Below, one piece after another: positions 30,563-55,662 of a DNA stretch of 64,000 bases. Under the pieces are notes generated by a model that was not told the DNA's origin, ran no database searches, and worked only from the letters and a program-made list of their open reading frames with translations. The position numbers and the translations under genes were made by a program. Within the stretch, counting starts at the first letter, position 1, and the number at the start of each line of letters is the position of its first letter. This DNA comes from a virus: IMG/VR virus record IMGVR_UViG_3300033048_000096. The stretch is one strand, 5' to 3'.

Positions 30563-31669
30563 ATGAGGGCGATAATGAAAGAACAACTAGACACGCTGCG
30601 AAAATGGCTGAAACAAAATAACTTCCGAAAAGAAGCAAATATCGTACGTAAACTAATTAACAAAAAATCTATGCTCATTAACGGCGAACCAAATGACTCA
30701 GGAATAATCGCATACAAAGAAAATATATGGCGGCTCTCAGAATATGAAGAAATAGACGAAAATATTAGAAAAGAAATAAATGAAAAACTTGGCACAAAAG
30801 AATGGCTCGACTTCAATGACCTACGCGAAGAACTAGACGAATTAGAAAGATTCGACGTTCTAATTGGCACACTCGATGACGGAGACCTCTACATATATAA
30901 TACTACTCTAACCATGGACCCCAAATCCTCTGTCCTAGTTAAAAAAGTTACCAAAGAATTAAAACTAAATAATGTATACTTATATGCAGAAGAAATAGGC
31001 GACGAAGAAAGAATACCAAGATATATCATGAAAGGAAAAACTATAGATGTCGCTTATCATGGAACCTCTACCAAATATCTTCAAAGCATACTCAAATTCG
31101 GGATCGCTCCAAATAAAGAAAAATCAAACTATAAAGATATAGAACACCCAGATGCTATATTCTTCTCATCAAGATTCCTCGAAGCTAAAAATCATGCAAC
31201 ACATACCGCTACCAAGAACGGTGGCGATCCAATGATTCTCGAATTTAAAATACCAAACAAAAATCTCCTAATACCAGACTATGACGTCGATATTAAATCA
31301 GGAGAATCAGGCATCTATGACTATATCCCAAGCAGGGTCAGAGAAGATAACGCCAGTAACTCCGAAATGAAAGGATCAAGCAACTCCTTGTCTAGAGAAT
31401 TCGGAATCTATGGCTATAAAGGAAGAATTCCAAGCTCATTCATTGACTTCTATTATATACTCATGAACTCAGACGAAAACTACGAAGAAGACACCTCATA
31501 CAAATCAAAAGAACATTACACTAAAGCAACTAAAGAAGAAGCCGCTGTATATGCCAGAACCAAAGAAGAATTTGGATTCGGAATGATCGAATATGATGAA
31601 GAAGACTACGAAGAAGAAGATGATGAAGAATACGAAGAATACGAAGAAGATAACCAGCTGAACTCGTAA
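30563..31669 (+). CDS. ADP-ribosyltransferase-fold protein (HGT motif; Tpt1/KptA- or PARP-like)
   Basis: AYHGTS..L.SILKFGI.P...AIFFS....A..HA......GGDPMILEFKIP...YKGRIP; acidic tail; the only substantial plus-strand gene. Confidence 0.7.
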   Translation: MRAIMKEQLDTLRKWLKQNNFRKEANIVRKLINKKSMLINGEPNDSGIIAYKENIWRLSEYEEIDENIRKEINEKLGTKEWLDFNDLREELDELERFDVLIGTLDDGDLYIYNTTLTMDPKSSVLVKKVTKELKLNNVYLYAEEIGDEERIPRYIMKGKTIDVAYHGTSTKYLQSILKFGIAPNKEKSNYKDIEHPDAIFFSSRFLEAKNHATHTATKNGGDPMILEFKIPNKNLLIPDYDVDIKSGESGIYDYIPSRVREDNASNSEMKGSSNSLSREFGIYGYKGRIPSSFIDFYYILMNSDENYEEDTSYKSKEHYTKATKEEAAVYARTKEEFGFGMIEYDEEDYEEEDDEEYEEYEEDNQLNS

Positions 31670-31712
31670 ACATAATTAAACTGTCTATGCAAAATCCTGA
31701 CAAAAGAACTCT

Positions 31713-31970
31713 CTACTCCTTACAACTCGAATCATACTTGACTCGCTCATTCTCCTCTCTTATTATTCGCTTTATATACTTATCCGCAGACTCTAATTCC
31801 GGGTAATAAAGAGCCACATAGTCTAATATATTCTTCTTCATAATTCCCTGCATACCGCCGCGACAACTATATGCACTTAATAAGTTGCTTAACTTATTCT
31901 TAACCAACTTATTCTCAACCAACTTATTCTTAACCAACTTGCTTACCTCACTCACTAATACCTCCATCAT
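31713..31970 (-). CDS. Hypothetical protein with 15-bp tandem repeats
   Basis: (KLVKN/KLVEN) repeats encoded by AACTTATTCTYAACC x3 at 31891-31935. Confidence 0.55.
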   Translation of the reverse strand: MMEVLVSEVSKLVKNKLVENKLVKNKLSNLLSAYSCRGGMQGIMKKNILDYVALYYPELESADKYIKRIIREENERVKYDSSCKE

Positions 31971-33276
31971 TACTCATCTTTTTAACCATCTTCTTTATGT
32001 GATCCAAAATAAACTCCGGCGTATGGACGTGCTTTACGAAATTACAAGTTCCACAACATGGTACCACATTGTCTTCCGTATAGCCACCGTCAGAATCTAT
32101 CCTGTCAAAACGGGACATGTCAAGCTCAACGCCGCAGTAATGACACTCCGCATTCCAATTAGAAATAACAAACTCCTTCGTTAACCCAAAATATATGCCG
32201 CGACGATCAGCGCCACGCCTCAATGATGTAAAACGCTCCCCAGGGGCCACACCATATCTCTTGCCGTTACGACTCCTCGCTCTCTTTAAAGGCTTCTGCT
32301 TACTACCTTTTTTATAACCAAAATTATTGCACTCATGATCGGAATTGTTGCCAAACTCCATGATCTTGTTTTTATCCATCTGCTTAATCATCTTTCTTAA
32401 ATGTGCTAAAAGAAACTCGGGCGTGTGAGTAAGCTTCACATAATTACAGTTCTTACAACAGGGAACCACGTTGGCCTCCGTATATCCCTTGTCCGAATCT
32501 ACCCGATCAAAACGAGCTATGTCAAGCTTCACTCCGCAGTAATTACAATCCGCATTCCAATTGGCAATCATAAACTCCTTCGTTAACTCAAAATATATAC
32601 CGCGAGACTTGGCACCGGACCTTAATGAAACAAAACGACCATTGTGAGTTAGGCTATGCTCCTTATGCCTTTTTAATATCCTCTTCCTGTTCTTTTTGTA
32701 ATGCTCCTTTCCTATGTTCGGATTCGCTTCCTTATATTTAGCCGAACTTATGCGGGCAGCCGCTTTAGCGTGATCGCTCTTCATATATTCAACATTATAT
32801 TTTGTGTGGCAATCCTTACAAGAGGTGCTAAAGCCGTCATCTCTTGTACTATCTTTTGAGAATTTATGAATAGACCTTTCCTCTTTGCACTTAGAACATT
32901 TTTTGCTCGTCTTTATGACCCCACTCGCATGATAAGCTGCTGCATTTTGCTTTCTCTTATTTGTGCGGCAACTCCTGCAGGTCCCTTCTCGACCATCTCT
33001 AGTCATGCCAGACTTATTAAAGCTAGAAAGGTGAAATGTTTCCTTACAGGCATTACAGGCTTTATATGCTTTTATAACGTACTTCGGTTTAGGATTTAAA
33101 GCATTTTTGGCATCTCTCTTTATCTTCCTAGCTATACTATAGCATGGCTTACATTTATTACTGTATCCATCTCTAGTAGCCTTGTTTACAGTGTAACTGT
33201 CGTATCCTAATAATTCTCCGCAGTCATTGCATTGTTTCTTTTTATCTTCACTCATTTCGCTATTCCTTAATCTCAC
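31948..33276 (-). CDS. Homing endonuclease: 3 zinc-finger repeats plus two tandem HNH-like domains
   Basis: Three KxCxxC...F......DG....CxxC units; two copies of C.YCG......FDR.DSD.GYTE.NVVPCC..CN.VK. Confidence 0.85.
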   Translation of the reverse strand: MRLRNSEMSEDKKKQCNDCGELLGYDSYTVNKATRDGYSNKCKPCYSIARKIKRDAKNALNPKPKYVIKAYKACNACKETFHLSSFNKSGMTRDGREGTCRSCRTNKRKQNAAAYHASGVIKTSKKCSKCKEERSIHKFSKDSTRDDGFSTSCKDCHTKYNVEYMKSDHAKAAARISSAKYKEANPNIGKEHYKKNRKRILKRHKEHSLTHNGRFVSLRSGAKSRGIYFELTKEFMIANWNADCNYCGVKLDIARFDRVDSDKGYTEANVVPCCKNCNYVKLTHTPEFLLAHLRKMIKQMDKNKIMEFGNNSDHECNNFGYKKGSKQKPLKRARSRNGKRYGVAPGERFTSLRRGADRRGIYFGLTKEFVISNWNAECHYCGVELDMSRFDRIDSDGGYTEDNVVPCCGTCNFVKHVHTPEFILDHIKKMVKKMSNDGGISE

Positions 33277-33891
33277 TCATCTTTTTAACCATATCACTTC
33301 TGTCTTTTTAATATTCTTCTGTAATGCTCTTTTCCCGCGCCCGAACCTCCGTATTGTTATGTTTACGCGATCATACTATTTGACGTAATTATTCCTAATA
33401 TGCCCTGATTGATATTTTGCATGGCAATCCTTACAGGAGGTGTTGAAGCCGTCACCTCTTGTACTATCTTTTGAGAATTTATGAATAGACCTTTCCTCTT
33501 TGCACTTAGAACATTTTTTACTTGTTTTTATAATTTCCTTCGCATGATAAGCTGCTGCATTTTGCTTCCGCCTATTTATTCGGCAACTCCTGCAGGAACC
33601 CTCCCTACCGTCTCTAGTTAGCTTAGACCTATCAAAGTTAGAAAGGTGAAATGTTTCCTTGCAAGCCTTGCAGGCTTTATATGCTTTTATAACGTACTTC
33701 GGTTTAGGATTTAAAGCATTTTTGGCATCTCTCTTTATCTTCCTAGCTCTGCTATAGCATACCTTACATTTATTACTGTATCCGTCTCTAGTAGCCTTGT
33801 TCACGCTGTAACTGTCGTATCCCAATAATTCTCCGCAGTCATTGCATTGTTTCTTTTTATCTTCACTCATTTCGCTATTCCTTAATCTCAC
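33275..33891 (-). pseudogene. Truncated, decayed tandem duplicate of the 31948..33276 HNH gene
   Basis: The first ~160 aa are nearly identical. A frameshifted remnant KEHYRRILKRQK follows, then 18 nt identical to the intact gene's 3' end (33275-33292 = 31972-31989). Both HNH domains are deleted. Confidence 0.8.
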
Positions 33892-34020
33892 ATTAACATT
33901 ACTCTTACCAGCCTCGATTAGCAGCAGATCCTCATGTTATGAGTATACCTCGTGCGCTAAAAAAAAACTATGCTATTTTTAAAATTATTTTAGGAAAAAT
34001 GACGCGGTTGCCTCACCGGC

Positions 34021-34085
34021 AAGCACCCAGAGCACCGAAACCTAGGCTCAGAGATTCGAACCTAAGCTCAGAGATTCGAACCTAA
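34021..34085. repeat. 20-bp tandem repeats (CCTARGCTCAGAGATTCGAA x2 plus partial copies) beside an AT-rich tract
   Basis: 34041-34060 and 34061-34080 differ at one base; degenerate copy at 34021; AT-rich stretch 33959-34000. Confidence 0.85.
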
Positions 34086-34088
34086 AAC

Positions 34089-34119: not shown

Positions 34120-34155
34120 ACTCTAGTTTGCATAATGCGCCCAAAATGGGGGTTA

Positions 34156-35178
34156 TTAGTCGGTTACGTAACCGCTAGCAACGCCTCTGGGGTTAACTAT
34201 GCCGATTCCCAATATCTCAGATACCACCCATCCTAGCTTCAGCTGCTTGGGTTCATCAGCGGGAAGAACTTCAATATCTTGCCTTATGGGCATAACTCCT
34301 ACGAATTCTGGATCCGCGGTAGCAAAGACTTGTTTAGGCGGCACGATTTTGGAGACGATAATATCTGCCCCAAAGAGGTGTCCATAGAGTCCAGTTTGAA
34401 GTAGTTCACGTTGGGTCACAGGATCGACCTGAGAGGCACCAGCGGCACCAGCGGATTCCCAGTTAAGCATATCAGTAAATTCACGAATATTCATGAAGTA
34501 CTTAGCAGTAACATTATCCCAGCCATCGATTTCGCGCTTAAGTCTGAGTAATCCTTGCTTAGACAGTTCGGAAGTTACGATACCATTATCAAGAGTTTGC
34601 AGGCTATTTTCACCACCACGAGCGGCATCAGAAGCGAAATCTAGAGCAGCGAAGACATTGGAGTCTTCTTGCGCTTGAATTTCCTGACGAGCTTTCTGTT
34701 GAGCACGATCGATTACATTGAATCTACGTCTCTTAACTTCAGCGATACGCACAGTAGGATTAGAAACGATTTCGAATTCGGGAACAGAAACTCTATCACC
34801 GAACACGCGTGATTCGGGTACAGAGCCGTTGCTAGAAATAACAACAGCGCTGACATCGATATCACGATCATATATAGCGAGAGCGCCTTGCGGGAGCGGA
34901 TCAACTACGAGAGCTTTACGTCCGACACCTTGATAATCGAGGTTTCTTCGGATTGGGTTAGCCATAGCTTGTCCTAATGCAATTTTCCCTTCCATGGTAG
35001 AAAGAGCTTGATGAATCATCTCGTCTCTTTGTGACTCATTGAATGAGGGTGATTGAGTTAGGCTAGAACTGGATGGGCTAAGTTCATCGATAATTGAGGC
35101 GTACTTAACAATTTTGCTTAGAGCATCCTTGACATTACCTGCACTTAGTTCACCTTGTGTATTAAATATATTAGACAT
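34156..35178 (-). CDS. Major capsid protein (HK97 fold)
   Basis: 340 aa; MANPIRRNLDYQGVGRKALVVDPLPQG, PEFEIVSNP, EIQAQED, G.LFGADIIVS..VP, GW..SE..GIGIVNPRGV; AGGAG RBS; strong terminator. Confidence 0.9.
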   Translation of the reverse strand: MSNIFNTQGELSAGNVKDALSKIVKYASIIDELSPSSSSLTQSPSFNESQRDEMIHQALSTMEGKIALGQAMANPIRRNLDYQGVGRKALVVDPLPQGALAIYDRDIDVSAVVISSNGSVPESRVFGDRVSVPEFEIVSNPTVRIAEVKRRRFNVIDRAQQKARQEIQAQEDSNVFAALDFASDAARGGENSLQTLDNGIVTSELSKQGLLRLKREIDGWDNVTAKYFMNIREFTDMLNWESAGAAGASQVDPVTQRELLQTGLYGHLFGADIIVSKIVPPKQVFATADPEFVGVMPIRQDIEVLPADEPKQLKLGWVVSEILGIGIVNPRGVASGYVTD

Positions 35179-35919: not shown

Positions 35920-38538
35920 TTAAATAGACATCAGCTTTTGAAGAGCATTGTCTATAAGATCTGAGGCTTCGTTCAATCCTGAATCGTCAGCCTGGTCTCC
36001 TAACTTAACTAAGTTTTGTATAACCCAGGCGTGTCTTCCTCTGAAGTTACCTGAAGGCATGCTTAACGCAACGCCTTTGTTATGTCTATGTTGTTCGATT
36101 TGGTTTTCAACAACTCCTCCCTTCCCCATGGCATCAGCGATATCGATGGTTTTCGGATGAGCGGCTCCAATCAGATCGGCACCTGACTCGTTATGAACCT
36201 TATAAAGCTTAACGAAGTCAGCTTCAGATTTGCCAAGTTTATTATCATACATGCTTTTTAGCCCTGCATAATAAGATTTAGCGTATTGGTCCTCAAGACC
36301 TGCGACAGCATCTTGGAAGTATTGTTTTGAAATTTGATCTGCTTTCTTATGCATATCTTTATTAATCCCATTGTCATAAATAACACTTGATTCGTTAGAA
36401 TTAGCAGGTTTCGTAAATTTTTGTGTAAAAAAGTTATTATTTTTTTGATTAGCATATTTTCCTAACTTCCCTCTATAAAACTTGACAGCATTTTTCCACC
36501 CGCTCATTCGTTTCCTTCCGACCTTATCTAGGTTTTGCCTTACAAATTTTCTAAGATCGGTTCTATTGAATATTTTATTGAGGTATAGATATTTTAGAGA
36601 TCTAAGATAATCATTTTGATTATTCTGAGTTTTGGTAAGCCACCCGCCCCATTTATTCTCTGGGTCAGTAAAGGCTAAACCTTCTGGTGTGTTTAGTACT
36701 TTCTTGATGATTCTTGGGGCGGCGCTTCTCATTCCTCTGCTTAGGCGGCTTATATCTATATCTTCATTGTTGATGGAGACAATTTGAGGGTAGGGATTAT
36801 CTTTATTTGAGAGAGGCTCTTCTGTGTTTTGTTGGTTAGTGTTTTCTGCTGGTCTAGCTATTGGTTGATTTATGCCTCTGGATTCTTCTTTTTGGTTATC
36901 ACTTGGTTCGTCTAACAGTTCGTCTGAGTATTGCATAGCTTGCATCATTATTTCTTTGAATTCGAGTGTATTTTCTGACAAAGCAGTTAGAGCATTAATA
37001 GCTTCGTCAAATCCATTCCCTGCGTTTAGGTCTTGTTTTATATCTTCTTGTAGTTTTAGGTAGTTATCTACATAGGCTTCCATAGTTGTAAGATCAGTGA
37101 GAGCGTCAAAGAATTCTGCTTTGGATAGGTCTTCTTTCTTTAAGTTATCTAGTGAGTTGAATGATTTGAGTATAATTTCAATTAGTTCTGATGTTTGATT
37201 AAGGCCATTGGATCCTTCTTTGAAGTTAAGCTCCCTTAATTTTCTTATTGCATTATATTGGTTAGCTCTAAGTTGGTCTATTTCTTCTTCGGCTAATTGG
37301 AAGTTACTTCTGAGCCAATTAATCCAAGCATAAACTGCTCCTTCGCTAACTAATCCTGCTATAGCTAAGAAGGTCAATCCTTTTATCAGTGTTGCCGAGG
37401 TTCCCAGTATTTTTGGGCTATTCTTAAGAAACAATTTCATAATAAATGCTGTAGCTGTGGACGGTCTTGATGGTTTTGAAGTTACTTTAGCGACTTCTTT
37501 GGCTGCTTTTGCTGCGCCTTCCTTTGATGCCTTGGCTGTTGCTTTAGATACGGTCTTAGCGGCCGCTGGGGAGGCTTTGGTTACAGCTTTGGTTGCTGAC
37601 GCGGTATCCTTTGAGGCTTGTCGTGCGGCCGCTGAGGTTGCTTTTGCCGCGAAAGAGTTTTCTCCCGCCGCTTCTTTCGCTGCTTTAGCTAGCCCCTCTA
37701 GGTATCCAGCTTTTCTTGATTCATCTATAGCTTTTGCGAGTTCTTTCTTATGTTTAGCTGCAAGCTTTATTCCTTCTTCTGAGAGGTTTTTTATTGTACT
37801 TTCCAGTCCGCTTATATTGTCGGCACCTTTGGCTACATCATCTTTGAGTGTTTTTATTAGATTCCCTTTTTCATCTAGTTTCCCTCCGAGATCTAATATT
37901 TTTTTCTCTAAGGTATCGACCATTGCTTCTGATTTTTTAAGAACAAAGATTGATTTTTTATATAATTCTTCTAGATTAAGTTTTTCATTTAGCAATTCGC
38001 TTGTTTCTTTGGATGCTTTTAGTAGCGCATTTTTAGCTTTGGTAGCTTGCCCTGCCATTGAGGCTCTGCTTCTTTTTAGGTTAACCATCATCAATGCTAC
38101 TTCATCTACGCTTTTGTCACCTATTAGCTTCATCCCTTGAGCTATTTTGGAGATCACTGATATTTGCTCAGTCATTATGTTTGCTGCGTTAATTAATTCT
38201 GGAGCAAGCTTAGATACCTTTGGTGCGTTTTTAACGCCTAGTTCGACAACTTCTTTTCCTGCATTCATTAGTTTATTAATTTCATTAATATTTTTGCCGG
38301 TAAGTTTGGATATTTCTTCTGGCGTTATCATGCCTGACTTAAGAGCTTTAATTATAAAATCATCCAGTGTCATTCCGGCAGCGCTTAGTAGTGTCTTGAG
38401 AGAACTTAGCCCTGATTCTTTAAGAGCCTTGATCATAGGCGCCATAACGTTAGCTTGTTTTTTGAGCATATATTTTTGCATTACTGCAGAATATTCGTCA
38501 AAGACTTCTGATGATGCTGTTTTTTGAATCCTAGACAT
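35920..38538 (-). CDS. Large coiled-coil internal head / ejection-like protein
   Basis: 872 aa; coiled coils, Ala/Lys-rich linker and one hydrophobic segment (LIKGLTFLAIAGLVSEGAVYAWINWL); located in the head module. Confidence 0.5.
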   Translation of the reverse strand: MSRIQKTASSEVFDEYSAVMQKYMLKKQANVMAPMIKALKESGLSSLKTLLSAAGMTLDDFIIKALKSGMITPEEISKLTGKNINEINKLMNAGKEVVELGVKNAPKVSKLAPELINAANIMTEQISVISKIAQGMKLIGDKSVDEVALMMVNLKRSRASMAGQATKAKNALLKASKETSELLNEKLNLEELYKKSIFVLKKSEAMVDTLEKKILDLGGKLDEKGNLIKTLKDDVAKGADNISGLESTIKNLSEEGIKLAAKHKKELAKAIDESRKAGYLEGLAKAAKEAAGENSFAAKATSAAARQASKDTASATKAVTKASPAAAKTVSKATAKASKEGAAKAAKEVAKVTSKPSRPSTATAFIMKLFLKNSPKILGTSATLIKGLTFLAIAGLVSEGAVYAWINWLRSNFQLAEEEIDQLRANQYNAIRKLRELNFKEGSNGLNQTSELIEIILKSFNSLDNLKKEDLSKAEFFDALTDLTTMEAYVDNYLKLQEDIKQDLNAGNGFDEAINALTALSENTLEFKEIMMQAMQYSDELLDEPSDNQKEESRGINQPIARPAENTNQQNTEEPLSNKDNPYPQIVSINNEDIDISRLSRGMRSAAPRIIKKVLNTPEGLAFTDPENKWGGWLTKTQNNQNDYLRSLKYLYLNKIFNRTDLRKFVRQNLDKVGRKRMSGWKNAVKFYRGKLGKYANQKNNNFFTQKFTKPANSNESSVIYDNGINKDMHKKADQISKQYFQDAVAGLEDQYAKSYYAGLKSMYDNKLGKSEADFVKLYKVHNESGADLIGAAHPKTIDIADAMGKGGVVENQIEQHRHNKGVALSMPSGNFRGRHAWVIQNLVKLGDQADDSGLNEASDLIDNALQKLMSI

Positions 38539-38540: not shown

Positions 38541-38963
38541 TTAGTCCTCATCGTATATGATTGAATCTATTGCTCTCTCGATTTTATATGCAACTTTGTA
38601 GTTACCCGAGTGGGAAGCCTCTGCTGCCATTTGTCCTAATTCTTCTAACAGGGATGCTTTAGCTATAGATTCTTCTTCTTGTCTTTTAGCTAGCTCTTCT
38701 TTTTCTGTTGGTTCAATTTCATCTTCGGCTAAGTTTTCTGCCATATCCATGAAGCTTCCTAACTCCTTTGATGCCGTCTGGGTATCTTTGCTAACTTGCT
38801 GAAGCTTTTGGGAGACCTGTCCAGCTTGCTGAGCTTCCACGAACTTTTCAGCTTTTTTGATTTGCATGATGGCCGCCTTTTCGATAAGAATTTTAAACTC
38901 ATCCATTGTGGTTATCTGCGCCTCATTCCATTTTTCTTTGTAATCAACATATTGTCTAGCCAT
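38541..38963 (-). CDS. Putative internal head protein
   Basis: Start MARQY with AAGGGG RBS; C-terminal helical-hairpin motif shared with neighbours. Confidence 0.5.
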   Translation of the reverse strand: MARQYVDYKEKWNEAQITTMDEFKILIEKAAIMQIKKAEKFVEAQQAGQVSQKLQQVSKDTQTASKELGSFMDMAENLAEDEIEPTEKEELAKRQEEESIAKASLLEELGQMAAEASHSGNYKVAYKIERAIDSIIYDED

Positions 38964-39823: not shown

Positions 39824-40414
39824 TTATCCTTGCTTTTTGATATTTTGTATTGTGGTAGTGACTACGTCTCCCGTCATCCTATCACCTTTACTATAAGCAT
39901 CAGCAGCCATTTTTTGAAGTCCTGAGACAACTCTTAATTTATTAGCAGCTTTTTTGAGGGCATTATTTTTTATGTTTTTAGCTGTAGACAATATCATATC
40001 AGCCGCGAAATTTTTATCTTTAGCTCTCATTTCTCCTGCGATCTTTCCAAGTTCATGCAAAACATACTGTGCTCTTCTATCTACCAAGTATGACGTATCA
40101 TTAGCCATTGATTCAGGCCTTTCTTGTTCGCAGCCATCTTCAGCCATATGCTCCTTGTTGCACTTGCCGCAAGGTCCATCACTAGCATAAGAAGATACTT
40201 CTTTGATTTTCCTATCAAGTTGATCGCCATGAACATCCACCTCTTCGGCAGGGCTAACTAGAAAGTCCTCTGGACTTACTTGAGCAAGCTTTGAAGCGAG
40301 TTCCTCTTCTTTTTTCCTAACAAGAGATGCTTCCTTCTTAATGTTATTAAGTTTAGACATACTCTGATGGAAGCTTTTCGCAAGCTCTTCTGCTGCATAT
40401 TTATTTCCAAACAT
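39824..40414 (-). CDS. Putative internal head protein with two helical-hairpin motifs
   Basis: AAGGAG RBS; two copies of the shared L..MA..-G...A.. motif. Confidence 0.55.
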   Translation of the reverse strand: MFGNKYAAEELAKSFHQSMSKLNNIKKEASLVRKKEEELASKLAQVSPEDFLVSPAEEVDVHGDQLDRKIKEVSSYASDGPCGKCNKEHMAEDGCEQERPESMANDTSYLVDRRAQYVLHELGKIAGEMRAKDKNFAADMILSTAKNIKNNALKKAANKLRVVSGLQKMAADAYSKGDRMTGDVVTTTIQNIKKQG

Positions 40415-40424: not shown

Positions 40425-43400
40425 TTAATCCCACATCGAGGCTAGAGTCTTATGGTTAATGCCATCTCTATTCGTTGAGTTTTGTCCAGGCTCATCAGTT
40501 ACTCCAATATTAAGGCCGGTAACATCAGAGGCAATCTTTACTGACGTATGGCCAGTAAAGGATGCGACACTTCTCTTGAATGACTCAAAGGCTTTATCAT
40601 CAAAGTCCATCATATTATCGACTTGACGATTAAGTGCGGGTCGCGTACCTGCAAGCATACCTTTTCGTTGCATTTCCATAGCGACGTCATAAGCTCTACG
40701 AAGTCTTATCTTGTAAGCATCTCTTTCGTCTTCGGCCTTTTTGTAGAGGAAACTCTTATTTAGCTTTGACTGAACAGAACTTAGTTGATCAGCCGCGTCA
40801 CTTTCTTTGTCATGAAGGCTCTCTTCGTGCTTATCAACCTCTTCTTCGGCAACCTCCTCAACTTCCTCTCTCTCCTTAGCGCTAAGATCATCTTCTGCGG
40901 AATTTTGAAGTCTTCCATCATCAGCGGCATGCTGTTGAACGGATGTTACTGATTTTTCTGCGACTTGACGTGACGGAGTGCTTGGATAGCTGTCGTACTG
41001 GTTAGCGTCTTGGTTACCATGGGAAGGTGCTGGCTTATGCTCACCACCGGTCGGGTTTTTATTGGCTATATCTTCGGCCATATCAGTGGTTACTCCGGAT
41101 ACTTGAGCATTCTCCTTCATTCCGATGCCGTCATGAGCCTCATTCTCCCGAGCCTCATCACCCTCAACCTCTTTATCGTCAGCATACGCTTCGGAAGCCT
41201 CATCACCATTCTCAAGATCCATACCGTTAGCTCTAAGTCTAGCTTGAGCTTTCTTTAATAGTTCTTGACGACGCTGCTTTCTCAGCTTCATTGCGCTAGC
41301 GATTAACTCACTCTCTCCTGAAACCGGAGCTTTAGCGGGAGTCACAATTGCTGCCGATTCCGTATACTCGGATACCTTAACCATGGATGTCGAAATAGTG
41401 TTGGCCATGCTGACTAACGCTTTTGATTGACCTACGATCGTAGAGAAGTCACGAAGCGCTGCTCCAGAAAGACCCTTAAGATCGCGCCTCTGAGTAGAGG
41501 AAAGCTTTCCGTATCTTTCGTAGGTTTCGGCTATTAGCGCTAACTCATCCGCGGAATCTTTCGCTTCAGCCAGAACAATCTTTAGCTGACCAAAAATCGT
41601 GCTAGAAAGCTTCATACTTTCTTCTGGCATATCCGGCATATCAACACCTTCGCCAACATTAATGGTAACATCACCGTCGGAATCTCCAAGATCACCAAGT
41701 GCACTTCGGATTTGCTCGATCGTATCTTCCATCGCGAGTAATGAATCTTCAATTTCCGACTTGGGAGTGCCTTCGCTCTCAAGCTCTTCGCCTTCCACCG
41801 GAAGCTCTTCACCCATATCTAAGGGGGCCTCTTCCATTGGGGCGGGAGGAAGCTCTGCACCCAACTCCGCACCAGGCATTTCGGCGCCTAGGTCCTGAGC
41901 AGTTCTTGTTAGATTGTATCCAACAAATCCTATTCCATCTTCTCGGATAGCAGCAACTACTGCTTTCGCGTAGTCAGTGCTTTTTAAGAATTCCCAATTA
42001 GCCTCAAGATTTTTACCGAAAATGTTTTTAGCAGTAGTTGCAATAACTAACTTGCCACCAGAGTAAACTTCGAAGCCAGAAGCAGCCTTATTTATGCTTC
42101 CATCTAGAGCGCGCTTTTGCTTAAACTTGGTAGAAAGCGAGGGACCTTTATACTTAGATCTTTTTTGAAGTTGCTTTATAGCGTCATCTCCAGGAAACAT
42201 GCCCTTGTCACCGCCCATATTTCCGGTCTGCAGCATATGCTTGTCAGAATCCCAGTACTTATGATAATCTTCTGAGGTGAACGTAGAAGGCTCAACGGAA
42301 GGGGCCGCTCCACCGAAGTAGTAAGCTCGCTTTTCAGTAGCGACATTCTTATCTTCAGCTCTAAGTTGCTTCTCTTTTATCTCTTTATCACCGGGAACCA
42401 TCCCGTCGGGACCGCCAAGGTTAGTTGGGTTTGCATGCATTTGTTTATCATCCTGTTCGCGAATTTTCTTTTGTAAAGCACCCTCATCCTTGTAGGTACT
42501 CGGTTCTGATGCTGGAGCCGCTCCTCCCTGAGGATAGGCTAGACGGCGACGAAGCGCAGCCCTTTTACGTAATCTTGACTCATTCATAATGTCCTCCGTT
42601 ATGGAACTTAATTTAATTTTATCATTTATCTTCTCTTGTGAAAAAGCATAATTTTCAGGCCCTACACCGTCTCCCTTAAATGAATCAGGATTTGGCTCAC
42701 TAACACCTGCGACCAGACCGGAAGACCCGGTGCCAGTATAATCACTAACGTCACCATCATCTTTCATAGTAATGGTATCACCACCAGAAGCGTTTTCGCC
42801 ACTAGTAAATACTTCGCCGAGTGGATCCGAAAGATCATCACCAGCAATTAACTCGTCGCTAAAGAAGCTTCTGAATAACTCAGGAGCTTGCTCCATAGTC
42901 TTGCCGGTAGCTGAAGCGAAATCTGCCATAGCTTTAGCAAGTTCATTTCTGTCTTGAGCATTCTTTTTACTGGCAGATTTTGTGAATCCACCGGTAGACA
43001 AATATCCCTTAACAATTCTCTCTCTCTGCTCTAAAGAGCAGCTTCCCGCACTACAAACAGAATTAAGCAATAAATCTAAGTTATTAACCTCTTTGGCACT
43101 AAGCTTTTTGAGATCCAAATCTACTCCGTAAGAACTCAACTCTTCTTTGTGCTTATTAATCGAAGCGAAGCATCTCAACAAGATCGAGCCAGGTTCTGCC
43201 GGATGAACTACTAGGCTATATTCAATTGGACTCAGACCTACGTTAATCTCTCCCCAAGCTTGTCTCGTCATTATATGACTACAATATTCTTTAGGAGTAG
43301 TTGCCGGCTTTCCACATTCAGTACAAATTGATGTAGCTACCGCAGTTCCCATCGAACCATAGCGAACTACGCCAGTAGATACTTTTCTTGCTAAATCCGG

Positions 43401-43916
43401 ATAATTAACTTTATCCAAAGCGCAAAGCCCAACGACTTGCTTTAACCTCTCATCATAATGAGTGTCTAGAATTATTCCCCTTACACCATCTACAGTATCA
43501 GACTTGTGATCAACACATAGGGGTCTTCCAATCCAATCCCTTGCGGCCTTCTTTAACTCAGACTCAGGAAAAATATCTCCATTATTATTTTTATGAGCTT
43601 TTACGTTGCCGTGCCACTTCCACTTTTCATCAAAATATCCCCAAGCATTATCTTTACCAACTTTCTTTAGATTTCCCTCTCCGTCGATTAACGAAGACTC
43701 TGCAGCCTTTAGAAAGATAATGCTGAAGTATAGAAAGTCGTCAGATTTCGGAGCAATAGTCTTTATTGTTTGTGCAAACTTATTTAATCTATTTAATATA
43801 TCTTCGCTAGCTAATTTGGTGTCAAACTCTGATGGACTTATTTCGCTTACCACGCTCATCTCTGTATGTCCAAATTTAACAATTTGCTTACTAATCATAC
43901 TTGCCCTCGATTTCAA
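40425..43916 (-). CDS. Prohead maturation protease fused to scaffold-like region
   Basis: N.NGDIFPESEL...WIGRPLCVDH...RGIILD...GSMG...CTECG...CSH...EIN.GL..IEYSLV.HPAEP (His...Ser protease with Zn insertion), followed by about 850 aa of acidic and coiled-coil sequence. Confidence 0.75.
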   Translation of the reverse strand: MKSRASMISKQIVKFGHTEMSVVSEISPSEFDTKLASEDILNRLNKFAQTIKTIAPKSDDFLYFSIIFLKAAESSLIDGEGNLKKVGKDNAWGYFDEKWKWHGNVKAHKNNNGDIFPESELKKAARDWIGRPLCVDHKSDTVDGVRGIILDTHYDERLKQVVGLCALDKVNYPDLARKVSTGVVRYGSMGTAVATSICTECGKPATTPKEYCSHIMTRQAWGEINVGLSPIEYSLVVHPAEPGSILLRCFASINKHKEELSSYGVDLDLKKLSAKEVNNLDLLLNSVCSAGSCSLEQRERIVKGYLSTGGFTKSASKKNAQDRNELAKAMADFASATGKTMEQAPELFRSFFSDELIAGDDLSDPLGEVFTSGENASGGDTITMKDDGDVSDYTGTGSSGLVAGVSEPNPDSFKGDGVGPENYAFSQEKINDKIKLSSITEDIMNESRLRKRAALRRRLAYPQGGAAPASEPSTYKDEGALQKKIREQDDKQMHANPTNLGGPDGMVPGDKEIKEKQLRAEDKNVATEKRAYYFGGAAPSVEPSTFTSEDYHKYWDSDKHMLQTGNMGGDKGMFPGDDAIKQLQKRSKYKGPSLSTKFKQKRALDGSINKAASGFEVYSGGKLVIATTAKNIFGKNLEANWEFLKSTDYAKAVVAAIREDGIGFVGYNLTRTAQDLGAEMPGAELGAELPPAPMEEAPLDMGEELPVEGEELESEGTPKSEIEDSLLAMEDTIEQIRSALGDLGDSDGDVTINVGEGVDMPDMPEESMKLSSTIFGQLKIVLAEAKDSADELALIAETYERYGKLSSTQRRDLKGLSGAALRDFSTIVGQSKALVSMANTISTSMVKVSEYTESAAIVTPAKAPVSGESELIASAMKLRKQRRQELLKKAQARLRANGMDLENGDEASEAYADDKEVEGDEARENEAHDGIGMKENAQVSGVTTDMAEDIANKNPTGGEHKPAPSHGNQDANQYDSYPSTPSRQVAEKSVTSVQQHAADDGRLQNSAEDDLSAKEREEVEEVAEEEVDKHEESLHDKESDAADQLSSVQSKLNKSFLYKKAEDERDAYKIRLRRAYDVAMEMQRKGMLAGTRPALNRQVDNMMDFDDKAFESFKRSVASFTGHTSVKIASDVTGLNIGVTDEPGQNSTNRDGINHKTLASMWD

Positions 43917-45808: not shown

Positions 45809-45809
45809 A

Positions 45810-46097
45810 TTATAACCCCTTATTAAGCTCGTCAATAACCGTTTTTATAAAATAAGGATCTCGACCATTTAAAATATTCTTAACCAAACTTATACTGGTC
45901 CCTATATAAGAGCCTCCGGGCTGATTCTTTGAGGACATATCGGGTATGTTTAATTCGAGAAATTTTCTTTTCAAATTAGGATAAGCACTTTGCTGAGAGT
46001 CAATCGACATTCTACCAATCATAACATCTATTATGTCACGTATTTGATTTGCTACAAATTTAGGATCATGTGGAAATCCACGAGCTTCTTTTTTCAT
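45810..46097 (-). CDS. Hypothetical head-module protein
   Basis: 95-aa ORF in a tightly packed operon. Confidence 0.55.
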   Translation of the reverse strand: MKKEARGFPHDPKFVANQIRDIIDVMIGRMSIDSQQSAYPNLKRKFLELNIPDMSSKNQPGGSYIGTSISLVKNILNGRDPYFIKTVIDELNKGL

Positions 46098-46101: not shown

Positions 46102-46626
46102 TTACTCGGAAAGATACTGATCAGCTCTTGTTAGAGTTTTCTTGTAGGCTGATTCTTTTGATTTATTTAAGTTACCATTTTTCATGTGCTCAAGGACCAA
46201 TGTTCTGCTATATATTTTCGCTAGCTTCTTCAAAACTTCATTCGTGTTAACTATCTCCGCATTATTAACTTTTATCATTAATTGATTAAACAAATCGGTA
46301 TAGTTGATCTTATTTGATTGGGCAAATTTATTAATTAAAAAATCAGCAAAACCTGCGAAAGCTTCCTCGCCAGAATTATCCATCTCGTCCCCTAGCGTAA
46401 CCAAAAGATCCATGATATTTTTATCTAATGTCATCTCACCACTATCAAACTCGTAAGTATCATAAATGTCCGGATCTGTATGATCGAAGTCCGAAGTCAT
46501 TTCTGTCAAACCAAATCCTCTACCTCCTGATTCCGTCGCGGTCTCTTTATCGACTAAATCAGTGGAAGGACCAGTTACCTGAGCCTCCTCTCCAGGCTTA
46601 GCTACACTATAAGAAGCTTTGTTCAC
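46102..46626 (-). CDS. Putative internal head protein
   Basis: Contains LLVTLGDEMDNSGEEAFAGFADFLINKFAQ; AGGAGG RBS. Confidence 0.55.
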   Translation of the reverse strand: MNKASYSVAKPGEEAQVTGPSTDLVDKETATESGGRGFGLTEMTSDFDHTDPDIYDTYEFDSGEMTLDKNIMDLLVTLGDEMDNSGEEAFAGFADFLINKFAQSNKINYTDLFNQLMIKVNNAEIVNTNEVLKKLAKIYSRTLVLEHMKNGNLNKSKESAYKKTLTRADQYLSE

Positions 46627-46894: not shown

Positions 46895-48673
46895 TTAACC
46901 GGGTGGTCCGCCTTCCGGTAGTTCAGGAGGCATGTCACCGCCTAAGTCGCCCCCTCCTAAGCCTCCTGGACCTCCTGGGTCCATAGGCGGACCACTACCG
47001 CCTGACATTCCTGGAAGCTCTAAGCCCATGTCATCTCCGGATTCACTATCCATACCCGGTAATCCCCCTGAACCACTGTCAGGTGGTTCAGGTATTATTC
47101 CGTCAGCATCTAGATTCTCCAACTCTCTTAATCTCATTGATTGAAGTGACTCCAATTCCTTAGTTCTAATTACCTCATCAATAGCTTCTTCTCGTAGTCT
47201 ACGCTTTTCTTCTTCGTAACTCAAGTCTAAGCTTCTATATAACGTCTGCAATGAAACTTGCTTATTGGATACGAAATTACTTACTCCCTGAACGTAATCA
47301 TTCATGTCATATAAATTCATGTGATTGAAGTCAATCGTCGGAACTAATAATACTTTTTGACCATCTTTAAATTCGAAGAAATCTTGCATTTCGCATATTG
47401 GTGCAAATATTTTTTGCTCTAACCACTTCTTTATCATATTTCTAAATATATCATACCTCTGCCTGAGAACCTCTAAACCTATTGACGAACTGGCGTACGA
47501 AGCAGATTCCTGATCCATTAAGGCTTTTGGAACCATCAAGCCTGTGTAAAGATTGTTCATGATTAACTCTATATCAGAAGATATATCAAGCACACCTCCC
47601 GAATAACCAACCCTCTCTATGGTGACTCCATCATGAGTAACGATCTTGAAATCCTTGTCATACTGCGACTCTTCCAAAACGCTTCTCATTTCTTCTATGT
47701 CAGATTGAGTCGGCCTATAATCATTTCCGTTTCCTAATTTAACTAAAGTAAGGGGATTGATCATGCTGTCAGCTTGGGCAAACTTAGACTCTCTAAGCTT
47801 ATCATAAAGCATTAAATCTTTATATATAGATACAATTACAGAAGTTCCTCTAACGTCATACGGAGAACTCAATAATTTCAAGTGTGATACATTTATGTTA
47901 TCCAAAGGTATTGACTGACCTTTCTTTACGGCATCAATTATATGCCTGGGTAATCTTCTCTTAAGCTTTAGATCTGAAGGTGAATTAGAATTAACCAACC
48001 TACCTAGAGCGGCATCTGGCTTTAATGATATTATAGTCTGGTCACCTATTGCCGCTTTCTTAACATGAACAAAGTCTGGATTAAGAATTGTTATTCGTTT
48101 CCAGGAACCAGTTTCTTTATCTAACTCTGCGTAAGGAAACACCTCACCCATTTTCCAGAACTCCAACGAAGCTCCGTAAACGACTGAATACAGATCAAGC
48201 TCTTCTGCCATCTGAAGGAAATATTCTTGAACTTCTTTTACGGGATGACTTATATTTATTTTGCTTATCGGGAATGATGCATGCAAGTTTATAGCATTTC
48301 TTACGATCGGATGTGTATCGTAAAATATTCTGTTCCACGCATTCATCGTGACACGGTCTCTTGGGAGGTTTAAATTCGCTAACTGGAATAATGGAGAATA
48401 TACTTCCGGACCCATCATATCAGATAAACCCTTCGTTGTAGGTAACGTTGAAGCTCCGCCCATAGCTCTCTTCGTCATCAAACCCCTATAAGCCGAACTA
48501 TGAGATACAACCGAATGTCTGCTGCCACCAACTCGCTCTTCATCATTAACCCTTTCCGTTTCCGCATCTTGAATTTGGGCTCTTCTTAATCCTGATAACT
48601 TCTTGAAACCATCTTTGGATAACGAATCGCTAATATTACTGATGATTTTACTCTCTTTTCTTCTGTTTTTCAC
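46895..48673 (-). CDS. Portal protein
   Basis: Directly after TerL; PIVRNAINLH..FP, GEVFPY, ILNPDFV, H.K.....YDVRGTS.I; Gly/Pro/acidic C-terminal tail. Confidence 0.85.
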   Translation of the reverse strand: MKNRRKESKIISNISDSLSKDGFKKLSGLRRAQIQDAETERVNDEERVGGSRHSVVSHSSAYRGLMTKRAMGGASTLPTTKGLSDMMGPEVYSPLFQLANLNLPRDRVTMNAWNRIFYDTHPIVRNAINLHASFPISKINISHPVKEVQEYFLQMAEELDLYSVVYGASLEFWKMGEVFPYAELDKETGSWKRITILNPDFVHVKKAAIGDQTIISLKPDAALGRLVNSNSPSDLKLKRRLPRHIIDAVKKGQSIPLDNINVSHLKLLSSPYDVRGTSVIVSIYKDLMLYDKLRESKFAQADSMINPLTLVKLGNGNDYRPTQSDIEEMRSVLEESQYDKDFKIVTHDGVTIERVGYSGGVLDISSDIELIMNNLYTGLMVPKALMDQESASYASSSIGLEVLRQRYDIFRNMIKKWLEQKIFAPICEMQDFFEFKDGQKVLLVPTIDFNHMNLYDMNDYVQGVSNFVSNKQVSLQTLYRSLDLSYEEEKRRLREEAIDEVIRTKELESLQSMRLRELENLDADGIIPEPPDSGSGGLPGMDSESGDDMGLELPGMSGGSGPPMDPGGPGGLGGGDLGGDMPPELPEGGPPG

Positions 48674-51106: not shown

Positions 51107-51115
51107 AATTATTCC

Positions 51116-52141: not shown

Positions 52142-52151
52142 CACTCTTCTC

Positions 52152-52424
52152 CTATCCATAAAAACTTGTAAGTAACCCGGTCCATGTTCTGCTTATATTA
52201 TCATCTACGTATTCTGACTCGTTAAACTGCCCTTGTAATGGCTTGGCAGAGTCACCAACATACACCCTGGGGTACAAAGGACTACCACTTAAAGGAATAT
52301 TAACAGAAGATTCTTCGTCATCAATCTCATACTCTTCGGGGTCATATTCGCCCTCCTCTTCGTACGCAATGATTTCGTCATCAAGATAATTTTTAAAATG
52401 TTTTTTGTTCATAATATTATTCAT
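52152..52424 (-). CDS. Hypothetical acidic protein
   Basis: About 90-aa ORF in the operon; start uncertain. Confidence 0.5.
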   Translation of the reverse strand: MNNIMNKKHFKNYLDDEIIAYEEEGEYDPEEYEIDDEESSVNIPLSGSPLYPRVYVGDSAKPLQGQFNESEYVDDNISRTWTGLLTSFYG

Positions 52425-52436
52425 AAATATCAACAG

Positions 52437-54143: not shown

Positions 54144-54153
54144 TTAGAACCCC

Positions 54154-55662
54154 TTAAACTAATGGCTCGTCTGGCTGCTTAACTGGAGAAACTTTAGACT
54201 CCTCAATTCCCTGCTGTATAGCTGCGGCACCTCTATCTGTCTCATCTTCATTCTCTGGCTCGAAAACCTTTCTAACCTCTTTCTTCGTGCGGCTATTTAA
54301 TTCATTCTTTTTAGCGTCAGATATCTCAATCAAGCTCTTGCCACTAGCCAACATTCCAAGCATCTTAGTGACACGAGTTAAGGCATATGAATTACCATCA
54401 ATTAGCTTACTTTGAGCTTCAGCTAATTCGGGAAACATTGCAGCGATACCAATCTTGTCAATCATAATATCAAACTCAGCTAACATACGAATGGTTCTTC
54501 TGTCTGATAACCTTCCAGCGATCTCCTCAAGTTTAATGACGGCATCAGTTAATGTTATGGGACCACCTAACTGCTCATACTCACCCTCTCTAGCCTGAGA
54601 ACCGCCAGACAAAGCTTTGCTTAATGAGCTTTCGTTAACCTCTTCTGACTCATTTCTATCAGGTGTCAGCTCAGAAATTCCTTCTGATATGGGTTCAGGG
54701 ACATCATCTAATGTGGGCTCTAGGACATCCTCTGATATGGTGTCTGGAATATTCTCTGATATGGGCTCAGGAACATCCTCTCTGTTCTCTAATGGACCTG
54801 GAGATAGATCCTGAGAGAATTTCATTAGCTCATCATGGCCTTTTGAGAATCCAGCTTTCTTAAACTTATTTGCATATTTAAATGATAAATCCGATGCAGT
54901 TACCTCATGCTTAAGACTTCTAACCTCTTGATCAAAATGATGAAGCAGGTCGGCCAAGTCTCTATGCGTTTCCTTATCTATGTGATCATCACTTTGCCTA
55001 AGAAGCTTATCAATCCTTCTTATCGCAGAATATAACTTGCTGCGCCATTCTATATACTCACCCTTAGAATCGTGCTTTTTAAATGATGGATTGTTTTTAG
55101 GAACAATAGCGTTATCAGGCCCGTAAGTACCTGGGCCCATTAGCGGAAATTGAAATCCATTTTTCTTTATATTGTCTTCTTCGTCAGAACTGTATTTTAG
55201 ATGCTCCCCTTTTTGATAATACTGAATCCATTTTTTGAACTTTTCATCCTCGGAGGTTTTAAGATCTAAACTGCCAGCATAATAATCTATAGCGCTAGGT
55301 AAATTCATGTCGCCGCTACTTACAGCGTCATAAATCTTATGAACCAACCCTGACCACTTATCTATGTCAAATTCCTGATCACCTTCCTGAGGGCCAAACA
55401 TCATCGGATAAGAGAACTTTTTAATCTCCCTATTTTCCATCGCTGACTTGAATATTAAATAATAATAATCGTTCAATGTTTTTAGACTGTAATCATCCTT
55501 ATTGTCAAATGACTCAATGACCAATTTTGGATTTAGACGGCTACCAAAAGTTGCCTCAATTATATTATGAATATTTACAAGATCTCTATAATCAGACGAA
55601 GACTTAACAAGCACTTCCGGGTACAAGATCATAACTTTTTTTAAATCTTTTTTAAAGCTCAT
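54154..55662 (-). CDS. Hypothetical head-module protein with short acidic repeats
   Basis: VPEPISE-type repeats around 54680-54780; several K-x-S motifs; start uncertain. Confidence 0.6.
   Translation of the reverse strand: MSFKKDLKKVMILYPEVLVKSSSDYRDLVNIHNIIEATFGSRLNPKLVIESFDNKDDYSLKTLNDYYYLIFKSAMENREIKKFSYPMMFGPQEGDQEFDIDKWSGLVHKIYDAVSSGDMNLPSAIDYYAGSLDLKTSEDEKFKKWIQYYQKGEHLKYSSDEEDNIKKNGFQFPLMGPGTYGPDNAIVPKNNPSFKKHDSKGEYIEWRSKLYSAIRRIDKLLRQSDDHIDKETHRDLADLLHHFDQEVRSLKHEVTASDLSFKYANKFKKAGFSKGHDELMKFSQDLSPGPLENREDVPEPISENIPDTISEDVLEPTLDDVPEPISEGISELTPDRNESEEVNESSLSKALSGGSQAREGEYEQLGGPITLTDAVIKLEEIAGRLSDRRTIRMLAEFDIMIDKIGIAAMFPELAEAQSKLIDGNSYALTRVTKMLGMLASGKSLIEISDAKKNELNSRTKKEVRKVFEPENEDETDRGAAAIQQGIEESKVSPVKQPDEPLV

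What the first reader, a model, noticed from the sequence alone, without database searches (positions are those of the whole stretch)
30563..55000. Shared ~28-aa helical-hairpin tag in otherwise unrelated proteins: candidate capsid-addressing system
Seen: VIQNLVKLGDQADDSGLNEASDLIDNALQKL (C-terminus of 35920..38538); LLEELGQMAAEASHSGNYKVAYKIERAIDSI (38541); VLHELGKIAGEMRAKDKNFAADMILSTAKNI and VVSGLQKMAADAYSKGDRMTGDVVTTTIQNI (39824); IMDLLVTLGDEMDNSGEEAFAGFADFLINKFAQ (46102); DLSFKYANKFKKAGFSKGHDELMKFSQ (54154); weaker EQLDTLRKWLKQNNFRKEANIVRKLINK (N-terminus of the ART). Consensus h-x2-L-x2-h-[AG]-x2-h-x3-G-x4-A-x2-h-x3-h. I did not see it in tail or replication proteins. Inference: a portable module that co-assembles proteins into the prohead core, analogous in function to the T4 capsid-targeting sequence but a folded hairpin. 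It would let the phage load enzyme cargo such as the ART for injection, and could be an engineerable packaging tag.
Basis: partly seen in the sequence, partly recalled or inferred. Interest (0 to 1): 0.8.

Follow-up and report, generated by a model that had tools for sequence, protein, structure and literature searches.

The report
Shared helical-hairpin module in phage head proteins
Four otherwise unrelated proteins in the head-assembly gene block of an uncultured marine giant phage share a conserved 31-residue helical hairpin, most likely the handle by which scaffold and internal proteins are built into the young capsid; relatives attach it to enzymes, but the claimed copy on this phage's ADP-ribosyltransferase is not supported.

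Summary
Five of the seven quoted copies are real; two are not. [quoted passage not shown] Profiles recover it in orthologues on dozens of related contigs with no decoy hits, always in frame and nearly always within 9 residues of the C-terminus. AlphaFold2 models it as a helix-turn-helix hairpin (pLDDT 86-97). The ART N-terminus and the 511-aa segment score like background.

The window belongs to an uncultured clade of about 330-kb marine jumbo phages (capsid protein 51% identical to Bacillus phage G). The module was found only in this clade. In one complete relative it marks 4 of 12 head-block genes against 5 of 367 others. The others include fusions to a superoxide dismutase, a zinc-protease-like protein and a membrane-active protein.

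Best reading (about 0.5): a scaffold-type capsid- or core-binding hairpin, like the P22 scaffolding C-terminus, shared by several prohead components and possibly reused as a cargo tag. No binding or packaging evidence exists. The scan held no earlier finding of this module on other DNA.

The parts
39824..40414 (-). 196-aa scaffold-like protein, immediately downstream of the prohead protease gene. It has a conserved N-terminal ~20 aa, a variable acidic linker and two module copies at the C-terminus.
   Evidence: module is the most conserved part; AF2 pLDDT 86-97 over aa 113-195 with two hairpins; copy number is 2-4 in homologues.
39971..40063 (-). Module copy 1 of the 196-aa protein (VLHELGKIAGEMRAKDKNFAADMILSTAKNI).
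39839..39931 (-). Module copy 2 of the 196-aa protein (VVSGLQKMAADAYSKGDRMTGDVVTTTIQNI).
   Evidence: hhalign score 47.5.
38541..38963 (-). 147-aa ORF (140 aa from the likely ATG): a scaffold-like protein with a long N-terminal helix, an acidic linker and a C-terminal module.
   Evidence: Alignment A4. AF2 gives H2-78, a disordered linker, H87-118, a turn and H122-137, with pLDDT 94-96 in the module.
38559..38651 (-). Module of the 147-aa protein (LLEELGQMAAEASHSGNYKVAYKIERAIDSI).
   Evidence: hhalign score 43.6; KLAYKIERTI is nearly invariant in orthologues.
35920..38538 (-). 872-aa protein with a central hydrophobic Gly/Ala-rich segment and a C-terminal module; candidate internal or ejection protein.
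   Evidence: A TM-like segment is present in every orthologue examined. No homologue in distant relatives.
35932..36024 (-). Module of the 872-aa protein (VIQNLVKLGDQADDSGLNEASDLIDNALQKL). This is the subtype closest to the N-terminal 'KEAD' modules of relatives.
   Evidence: A KEAD-only HMM retrieves it as top hit, E 1.1e-4. Alignment A5.
46102..46626 (-). 174-aa protein encoded just after the portal gene, carrying an internal module.
   Evidence: orthologues in L082, G001 and G004 keep FADFLI.
46324..46416 (-). Internal module of the 174-aa protein (IMDLLVTLGDEMDNSGEEAFAGFADFLINKF).
   Evidence: hhalign score 29.8, P 4e-6.
40425..43916 (-). 1163-aa prohead protease fusion protein; context gene with no module.
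   Evidence: phrog_18299 head maturation protease, aa 122-219; 33% identical to the phage G gp19 region; no module.
34156..35178 (-). Major capsid protein; context and candidate binding partner. It has about 45 extra N-terminal residues compared with phage G gp27.
   Evidence: phrog_2522, E 3e-72; 51% identical to phage G gp27 from residue 46.
46895..48673 (-). Portal protein; start of the head block.
   Evidence: phrog_16240, E 4e-48; matches phage G portal gp14.
30581..30664 (+). ART N-terminal segment claimed as a weak copy: not supported.
   Evidence: hhalign rank 14 of 72, P 0.07; not hit by any HMM; no family in clade DNA.
54811..54891 (-). Segment of the 511-aa protein claimed as a weak copy: a conserved helix-Gly-helix, but not significantly related to the module.
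   Evidence: P 0.13; rank 36.

Best explanation
The module is a small folded alpha-hairpin domain: helix 1 is h..L.K[LM]A..h, a tight turn falls at the conserved Gly16, and helix 2 is .AAD[LMV][IV]..T[IA]..I. It arose in one clade of about 330-kb marine jumbo phages. In the window it ends three proteins encoded between prohead protease and capsid protein. Two are small, acidic and coiled-coil scaffold-like; one is large with a membrane-like segment. It also sits inside a small protein encoded just after the portal gene. Most likely it is the assembly-interaction domain of the scaffold system. On this reading it docks its carrier onto the inner face of the capsid-protein lattice, or onto other module-bearing core proteins. 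Scaffold and internal proteins would then be co-incorporated into the prohead, as with the C-terminal helix-turn-helix of P22 scaffolding protein. Variable copy number (2-4) in the 196-aa family would give multivalent binding to a repetitive lattice. Shown: the module is real, conserved, hairpin-shaped, enriched in the head block and portable in relatives. Inferred: its binding partner, its role in packaging, and that enzyme fusions in relatives are packaged cargo.
For: 1. Position. All four window carriers lie in the 12-gene portal-to-capsid block (4 of 12 against 0 of 60, P 5e-4). In the complete relative G001 the figures are 4 of 12 against 5 of 367 (odds ratio 36, P 7e-5). 2. Terminal location. 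In 100 of 105 carriers near capsid genes the module ends 1-9 residues from the C-terminus. 3. Architecture. The 147- and 196-aa families have a conserved N-terminal helix, an indel-rich acidic linker, then the module as the best-conserved part. AF2 models a long helix, a disordered linker and a C-terminal hairpin at pLDDT 86-97. 4. Precedent. P22 scaffolding protein binds coat through a C-terminal helix-turn-helix, and HSV capsid protein binds the C-terminal 25 residues of UL26 and UL26.5 (PMC12005531). 5. The 872-aa carrier has a TM-like segment in every orthologue examined, as ejection proteins do. 6. Portability. Relatives fuse the module to Fe/Mn SOD (conserved between G001 and G003 at 41% identity), an HExxH protein, a glycine-zipper protein matching tape-measure and virion-lysin families, an M15-like peptidase and LysM. 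Several of these are enzyme types known from virions. 7. The module and this capsid lineage co-occur. All placeable carrier contigs are fragments of about 330-kb genomes of this clade, and five more distant capsid relatives lack it.
Against: There is no direct evidence of binding, encapsidation or virion presence. Carriers outside the head block in G001 and G002 lie among non-structural genes (DNA ligase, methyltransferase, GroEL, PurZ-like). One carrier (P0162) has a lipobox-like hydrophobic segment right after the module, which suggests export rather than packaging. No conserved protease site flanks the module. The prohead protease itself lacks the module. The module profile matches de novo designed helical repeats at E 1e-9, so it is close to a generic idealised hairpin that could serve any protein-protein contact. 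There is no sequence or fold match to any known scaffolding protein.
Confidence: 0.5

Rival explanations
1. A generic self- or hetero-association hairpin: two hairpins form a four-helix bundle. The clade would reuse it wherever oligomerisation is useful, with no specific link to capsids. Its presence on scaffold-like proteins would then reflect scaffold oligomerisation only.
For: The module resembles idealised designed helical hairpins. It occurs at N-termini, C-termini and internally, sometimes at both ends of one protein. Many carriers lie among non-structural genes. phi29-type and P22 scaffolds also use helical segments to oligomerise (PMC12005531).
Against: There is a 36-fold enrichment in the head block and a strict C-terminal position in head carriers. 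Subtype-specific conservation is strong, for example KLAYKIERTI, which suggests specific partners.
Confidence: 0.25
2. A cell-envelope or lysis-related targeting element: the module marks proteins that act on or in the host envelope and has nothing to do with packaging.
For: Partners include an M15-like peptidase, LysM, a lipobox-like segment, a glycine-zipper membrane segment and TM-like segments in the 872-aa family.
Against: The small acidic coiled-coil carriers next to the protease have no envelope features. SOD and HExxH fusions do not fit. The module is amphipathic and acidic, unlike export signals. Envelope-active enzymes are also typical of ejected virion proteins, so this evidence does not discriminate.
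Confidence: 0.07
3. A recruitment tag for the phage-encoded GroEL-type chaperonin, marking proteins that need assisted folding.
For: The clade encodes GroEL (two paralogues in four of the five relatives tested; one copy found in G001), one about 2 kb from two carriers in G001. In T4 the capsid protein N-terminus directs proteins to GroEL (cited in PMC10052503). Phage G, Rctr197k, Tunturi_5 and PaBG lack both GroEL and the module.
Against: LR745208 has GroEL but no module. The carriers are small helical proteins unlikely to need a chaperonin. The hypothesis does not explain the C-terminal position or the multi-copy forms.
Confidence: 0.05
4. No common origin or function: similar amphipathic hairpins arose independently, or the match is chance.
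For: The motif is short and low in complexity. Leave-one-out E-values with four seeds are weak (0.018-0.5 for three of four). There are matches to designed proteins.
Against: There were no decoy or wrong-frame hits in about 10,000 ORFs. Subtypes retrieve one another: a KEAD-only HMM finds the 872-aa C-terminus at E 1e-4. There is a clean score gap, and Gly16, AAD and T-I positions are shared across subtypes.
Confidence: 0.05

Closest known systems
C-terminal helix-turn-helix coat-binding domain of phage P22 scaffolding protein gp8 (and C-terminal coat-binding ends of T7, SPP1 and 80alpha scaffolds)
   Same: A small helical hairpin at the extreme C-terminus of an elongated, helical, acidic protein encoded next to protease and capsid genes. 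The P22 domain is portable in practice, being used as an encapsulation tag in P22 particles (PMC9962691, from its title and abstract; PMC12005531).
   Different: No sequence or fold-search relationship. Here the same hairpin is on several unrelated proteins, in 1-4 copies, and in relatives also at N-termini of enzymes. Binding to coat is not shown.
T4 capsid targeting sequence (CTS) of internal proteins IPI-III and Alt
   Same: One short element shared by otherwise diverse proteins, which in T4 directs them into the scaffolding core (PMC3012670).
   Different: By my own knowledge, not checked here, the CTS is a roughly 10-residue N-terminal peptide removed by the prohead protease. The module is a 31-residue folded hairpin, C-terminal in the window, with no conserved adjacent cleavage site. 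The window's ART, the would-be Alt analogue, does not carry it.
Herpesvirus UL26 / UL26.5 shared C-terminal capsid-binding tail
   Same: Several prohead-core proteins share one C-terminal element that binds the major capsid protein (PMC12005531).
   Different: In herpesviruses the sharing comes from nested genes and includes the protease. Here the carriers are separate unrelated genes and the protease lacks the module.
Encapsulin cargo-loading peptides
   Same: Terminal tags that load diverse enzymes, including oxidative-stress enzymes, into an HK97-fold shell (my own knowledge, not checked here). The module-SOD fusion in relatives is reminiscent.
   Different: Cargo-loading peptides are short and unstructured. 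They have no relation to scaffolding proteins and no sequence similarity.
N-terminal propeptides of giant-phage head proteins (SPN3US, phiKZ)
   Same: Giant phages load many internal and ejection proteins, and terminal regions are suspected to target them to the prohead (PMC10052503).
   Different: Those propeptides are 20-254 residues, mostly N-terminal, defined by protease cleavage, and not a single shared recognisable domain.

Membership tests
P22-type scaffolding protein with C-terminal helix-turn-helix coat-binding domain | Gene lies between portal or protease and the major capsid protein gene | tested here: met
   The gene order is portal, 67, 174, 95, 624, protease, 196, 230, 147, 872, 218, capsid protein. 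The same order is seen in G001.
P22-type scaffolding protein with C-terminal helix-turn-helix coat-binding domain | Elongated alpha-helical protein ending in a helix-turn-helix | tested here: met
   AF2 models of the 196-aa and 147-aa proteins.
P22-type scaffolding protein with C-terminal helix-turn-helix coat-binding domain | Sequence or fold relationship to a known scaffolding family | tested here: not met
   No Pfam hit. No natural scaffold among PDB sequence hits. Foldseek found nothing at E <= 0.001.
P22-type scaffolding protein with C-terminal helix-turn-helix coat-binding domain | [quoted passage not shown] | not testable with these tools
   No multimer prediction, proteomics or cultured host is available.
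T4 capsid targeting sequence | Short N-terminal peptide on internal proteins | tested here: not met
   The module is a 31-aa folded hairpin. It is C-terminal or internal in all window carriers.
T4 capsid targeting sequence | Adjacent prohead-protease cleavage site that removes the tag | tested here: inconclusive
   Flanks carry at most 0.8 bits per position and no shared motif. The protease's specificity is unknown.
T4 capsid targeting sequence | Shared by otherwise unrelated proteins | tested here: met
   With the module masked, the four window carriers do not cluster together. Relatives fuse it to SOD, an HExxH protein, an M15-like peptidase and LysM.
Herpesvirus UL26/UL26.5 shared C-terminal tail | Protease and scaffold carry the same C-terminal capsid-binding element | tested here: not met
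   The 1163-aa protease protein has no module: its best hhalign score is 14.5, P 0.08, and the match is internal.
EF-hand (helix-loop-helix calcium site) | 12-residue DxDxDG-type loop between the helices | tested here: not met
   AF2 gives a 2-3 residue turn. Centrin hits are only weak, E 0.04-0.9. No EF-hand Pfam hit on the module.

The most novel reading that the evidence does not exclude
A whole clade of about 330-kb marine jumbo phages uses one folded 31-residue hairpin as a universal address label for the prohead interior. The label would be carried by scaffold proteins and by a changing set of injected cargo: superoxide dismutase, peptidases, membrane-active proteins and many small proteins of unknown function (more than ten per genome in some members). 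If so, the injected proteome could be read from sequence, and the hairpin would be an engineerable packaging tag.
Probability: 0.3. Interest if true: 0.75.

Novelty: new variant of a known kind. Interest (0 to 1): 0.55.

Why it matters
How giant phages load their many internal and ejected proteins is largely unknown. In the SPN3US and phiKZ systems only heterogeneous propeptides have been described. A single recognisable domain shared by scaffold-position proteins and by enzyme fusions would give a sequence-level handle for predicting capsid contents in uncultured jumbo phages. It would also point to a compact candidate tag for loading proteins into HK97-fold shells. Even on the conservative reading, this is an undescribed domain family. 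It has no Pfam model and at least 1000 cluster representatives in public metagenomes, nearly all labelled hypothetical. It annotates four previously blank genes in a conserved head operon.

Tried and rejected
1. ART N-terminus and the 511-aa segment as module copies: rejected statistically.
2. Phage G and four other distant capsid relatives: no module, so cultured-phage proteomics cannot be borrowed. tblastn of a KEAD module and of P0010 against cultured phages found nothing.
3. Fold search of the 196-aa model against PDB: only generic helical bundles. The protein atlas gave only a weak lead, TM 0.30 to an HK97-family capsid protein.
4. PDB sequence profiles: hits only to designed helical repeats and weak centrin matches. 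The EF-hand reading was rejected.
5. Conserved cleavage motif next to the module: none found.
6. Promoter sharing between head genes and non-head carriers: TTCTAATAAT is not enriched. The enriched AACTCTAAAAA motif belongs to a separate small-gene cluster, and the carriers lie inside operons. This was inconclusive.
7. Neighbourhood of non-head carriers: non-structural genes, so it gives no support.
8. GroEL co-occurrence: partial only.
A degenerate DNA pattern and an extended alignment replaced them.
10. No whole genome is held for the window, so the window's own non-head carriers could not be sought.
11. PMC9723584 describes similar freshwater phages, but its 'phage g' hits were the word 'phage genomes'. 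It was not used as evidence.
Full report
WHAT THE WINDOW IS. The window is part of an uncultured jumbo phage. On the minus strand it encodes large terminase (48681-50462), portal (46895-48673), a 1163-aa protein with a prohead-protease domain (40425-43916) and the major capsid protein (34156-35178). Tail genes follow downstream; a tail sheath lies at 7356-10565. The capsid protein is 51% identical to gp27 of Bacillus phage G. It is 74-91% identical to capsid proteins on 298 IMG/VR contigs. One of these, G001, is a complete 335,169-bp genome with terminal repeats. No whole genome is held for the window itself.

THE OBSERVATION. All seven quoted peptides exist. An HMM of the five strong copies, tested by leaving each protein out, ranks the omitted copy first among non-seeds in three of four tests, but weakly. 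Related contigs supplied the missing depth. Iterated over 9,241 six-frame ORFs, the profile converged on 143 domains in 105 ORFs. There were no hits in reversed decoys. Every locus hit was on the capsid-gene strand. In 100 of 105 carriers the last copy ended 1-9 residues from the C-terminus. With the module masked, the carriers fall into the same four orthologous families seen in the window. hhalign of 72 window ORFs against the module profile separates the four carriers (scores 29.8-47.5) from a background that tops out at 15.9. The ART N-terminus ranks 14th (P 0.07) and the 511-aa protein 36th. The 511-aa segment is conserved in six orthologues and is hhalign's best local match, but P is 0.13. 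The ART element has a single look-alike in 1.9 Mb of clade DNA. Five copies are therefore confirmed and two are not.

ANATOMY. In the 196-aa and 147-aa families the module is the best-conserved part. A short conserved N-terminal segment and a variable, acidic, indel-rich linker precede it. AlphaFold2 models the 196-aa protein with helices 113-131, 135-176 and 179-195 at pLDDT 86-97. That makes two hairpins, with turns at the conserved Gly/Asp position. The 147-aa protein is modelled as a helix of about 77 residues, a disordered linker and a C-terminal hairpin at pLDDT 94-96. The 872-aa family keeps a hydrophobic Gly/Ala-rich segment in every orthologue examined. None of the carriers has a homologue in phage G or other distant relatives, whereas portal and protease do.

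DISTRIBUTION. Whole-record scans of five relatives found strong hits only in the head block. They also found weaker hits elsewhere. Those weaker hits are a distinct 'KEAD' subtype, for example MIKELIKLANELDSRGLVKEADYLDSIIKK, at N-termini, C-termini or internal positions of other proteins. A profile built only from those proteins retrieves the window's 872-aa C-terminus as its top hit (E 1e-4), so the subtypes are one family. A profile search of 1.84 billion representatives gave at least 1000 hits at E <= 0.001, with one to four copies per protein. An annotated search gave 302 hits. Nearly all were 'hypothetical', without Pfam domains, and from marine metagenomes including Tara Oceans.

A six-frame scan of complete G001 found nine carrier proteins. 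Four lie in the 12-gene portal-to-capsid block, which is syntenic with the window. Five lie elsewhere: an HEIGH-motif protein, a glycine-zipper protein matching tape-measure and virion-lysin families, an 85-aa protein, an Fe/Mn superoxide dismutase with an N-terminal module, and its 408-aa neighbour. The enrichment is 36-fold (P 7e-5); in the window it is 4 of 12 against 0 of 60 (P 5e-4). The module-SOD fusion is conserved in G003 at 41% identity. Other wild carriers include a module-LysM protein and a protein with two modules around an M15-like peptidase. That peptidase is homologous to the module-less C-terminal domain of the window's 568-aa protein. G002 has at least 11 N-terminal carriers in one 26-kb region.

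CLADE RESTRICTION. A degenerate DNA pattern for the module core found 45 loci in IMG/VR. The ten long new contigs tested are all rated 19-68% complete, which implies genomes of about 330-350 kb. One carries the capsid gene at 78% identity and another ends in its first 20 codons. Phage G, LR745208, Rctr197k, Tunturi_5 and PaBG have no hit at E <= 1, with the same tool and near-identical profiles (A1, A2) that scored G001-G005.

MECHANISM. Several features match classical scaffolding proteins: the gene position, the helical and acidic architecture, the strict C-terminal placement and the variable copy number. The C-terminal helix-turn-helix of P22 scaffolding protein binds the coat lattice, and herpesvirus scaffold proteins share a C-terminal capsid-binding tail (PMC12005531). 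I therefore read the module as the assembly-interaction domain of the scaffold system, shared with a large membrane-active internal protein and a portal-proximal protein. Reuse on enzymes in relatives fits a cargo-addressing role in the manner of the T4 capsid targeting sequence (PMC3012670) and of giant-phage propeptides (PMC10052503). That step is inference.

Several observations count against it. Non-head carriers sit among non-structural genes. One carrier has a lipobox-like segment after the module. No cleavage motif adjoins the module. The protease lacks the module. The module also resembles idealised designed hairpins, so a generic association role remains a serious rival. Fold and sequence searches found no known scaffold relative. 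Promoter analysis and chaperonin co-occurrence did not discriminate between the readings.

VERDICT. This is a real, undescribed, clade-specific hairpin domain, strongly tied to the head-assembly block. It is probably a scaffold-type capsid- or core-binding element and possibly a cargo tag. The claim that it loads this phage's ART is unsupported. It is a new variant of a known kind. Interest is moderate to high but depends on experiments, because no binding or packaging data exist and the clade has no cultured member.

Noticed in passing
window 31948-33276 and 33376-33891 (-): Two adjacent Cys-rich, HNH-like ORFs share a nearly identical N-terminus of about 150 aa. This is a recent duplication or truncated copy next to the capsid gene.
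   Followed up: no
window 52437-54143 (-): A poly(A)/CCA nucleotidyltransferase head domain (PF01743) is fused to an M15-like peptidase. The peptidase is homologous (27% identity, E 2e-15) to the centre of environmental protein P0119, which carries the hairpin module on both sides; the window protein has none.
   Followed up: partly
window 43961-45835 (-): A DUF192 domain (PF02643, E 8e-19) sits inside a 624-aa protein of the head block, between portal and protease.
   Followed up: no
window 25326-27383 and 59731-61281 (-): Two large HNH homing-endonuclease-like genes (phrog_559 and phrog_681, E down to 1e-134).
   Followed up: no
G001 90249-94109 (loci L171 and L172): The portal ORF of the complete relative is 1286 aa, against 592 aa in the window. 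Only residues 3-296 align in the first segment, which suggests an insertion or fusion.
   Followed up: no
G001 258.9-283 kb (loci L181 and L182): Thirteen small genes are each preceded, 40-87 nt upstream, by AACTCTAAAAA[GAT]ATAT. Its core 8-mer CTCTAAAA occurs in 13 upstream regions against about 1 expected. It is a candidate promoter class of a small-gene cluster.
   Followed up: partly
G001 23367-24953 and 30803-32635; G002, G004, G005, G007: Four of the five relatives tested carry two GroEL-type chaperonin paralogues (52-53% and 36-39% identical to the G001 copy). G001 has a PurZ-like adenylosuccinate-synthetase gene next to a DHH phosphoesterase, which hints at modified DNA bases.
   Followed up: partly
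L002 3254-3706 and L004 675-1127: The two closest relatives (capsid protein 90-91% identical) have an extra 151-aa protein with a C-terminal module between the 872-like gene and the gene before the capsid gene. The window lacks it.
   Followed up: partly
window 34156-35178 (-), residues 1-45: The capsid protein has about 45 N-terminal residues that phage G gp27 lacks, including a predicted amphipathic stretch (NVKDALSKIVKYASIIDEL). This could be the docking site for the hairpin; it was not tested.
   Followed up: no
L114 2-412 (-), G002 about 153.0-153.4 kb: A 130-aa ORF contains LSALRRWLLKGNYSEFKKVASLL, the only look-alike of the window ART's N-terminal segment found in 1.9 Mb of clade DNA.
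   Followed up: partly
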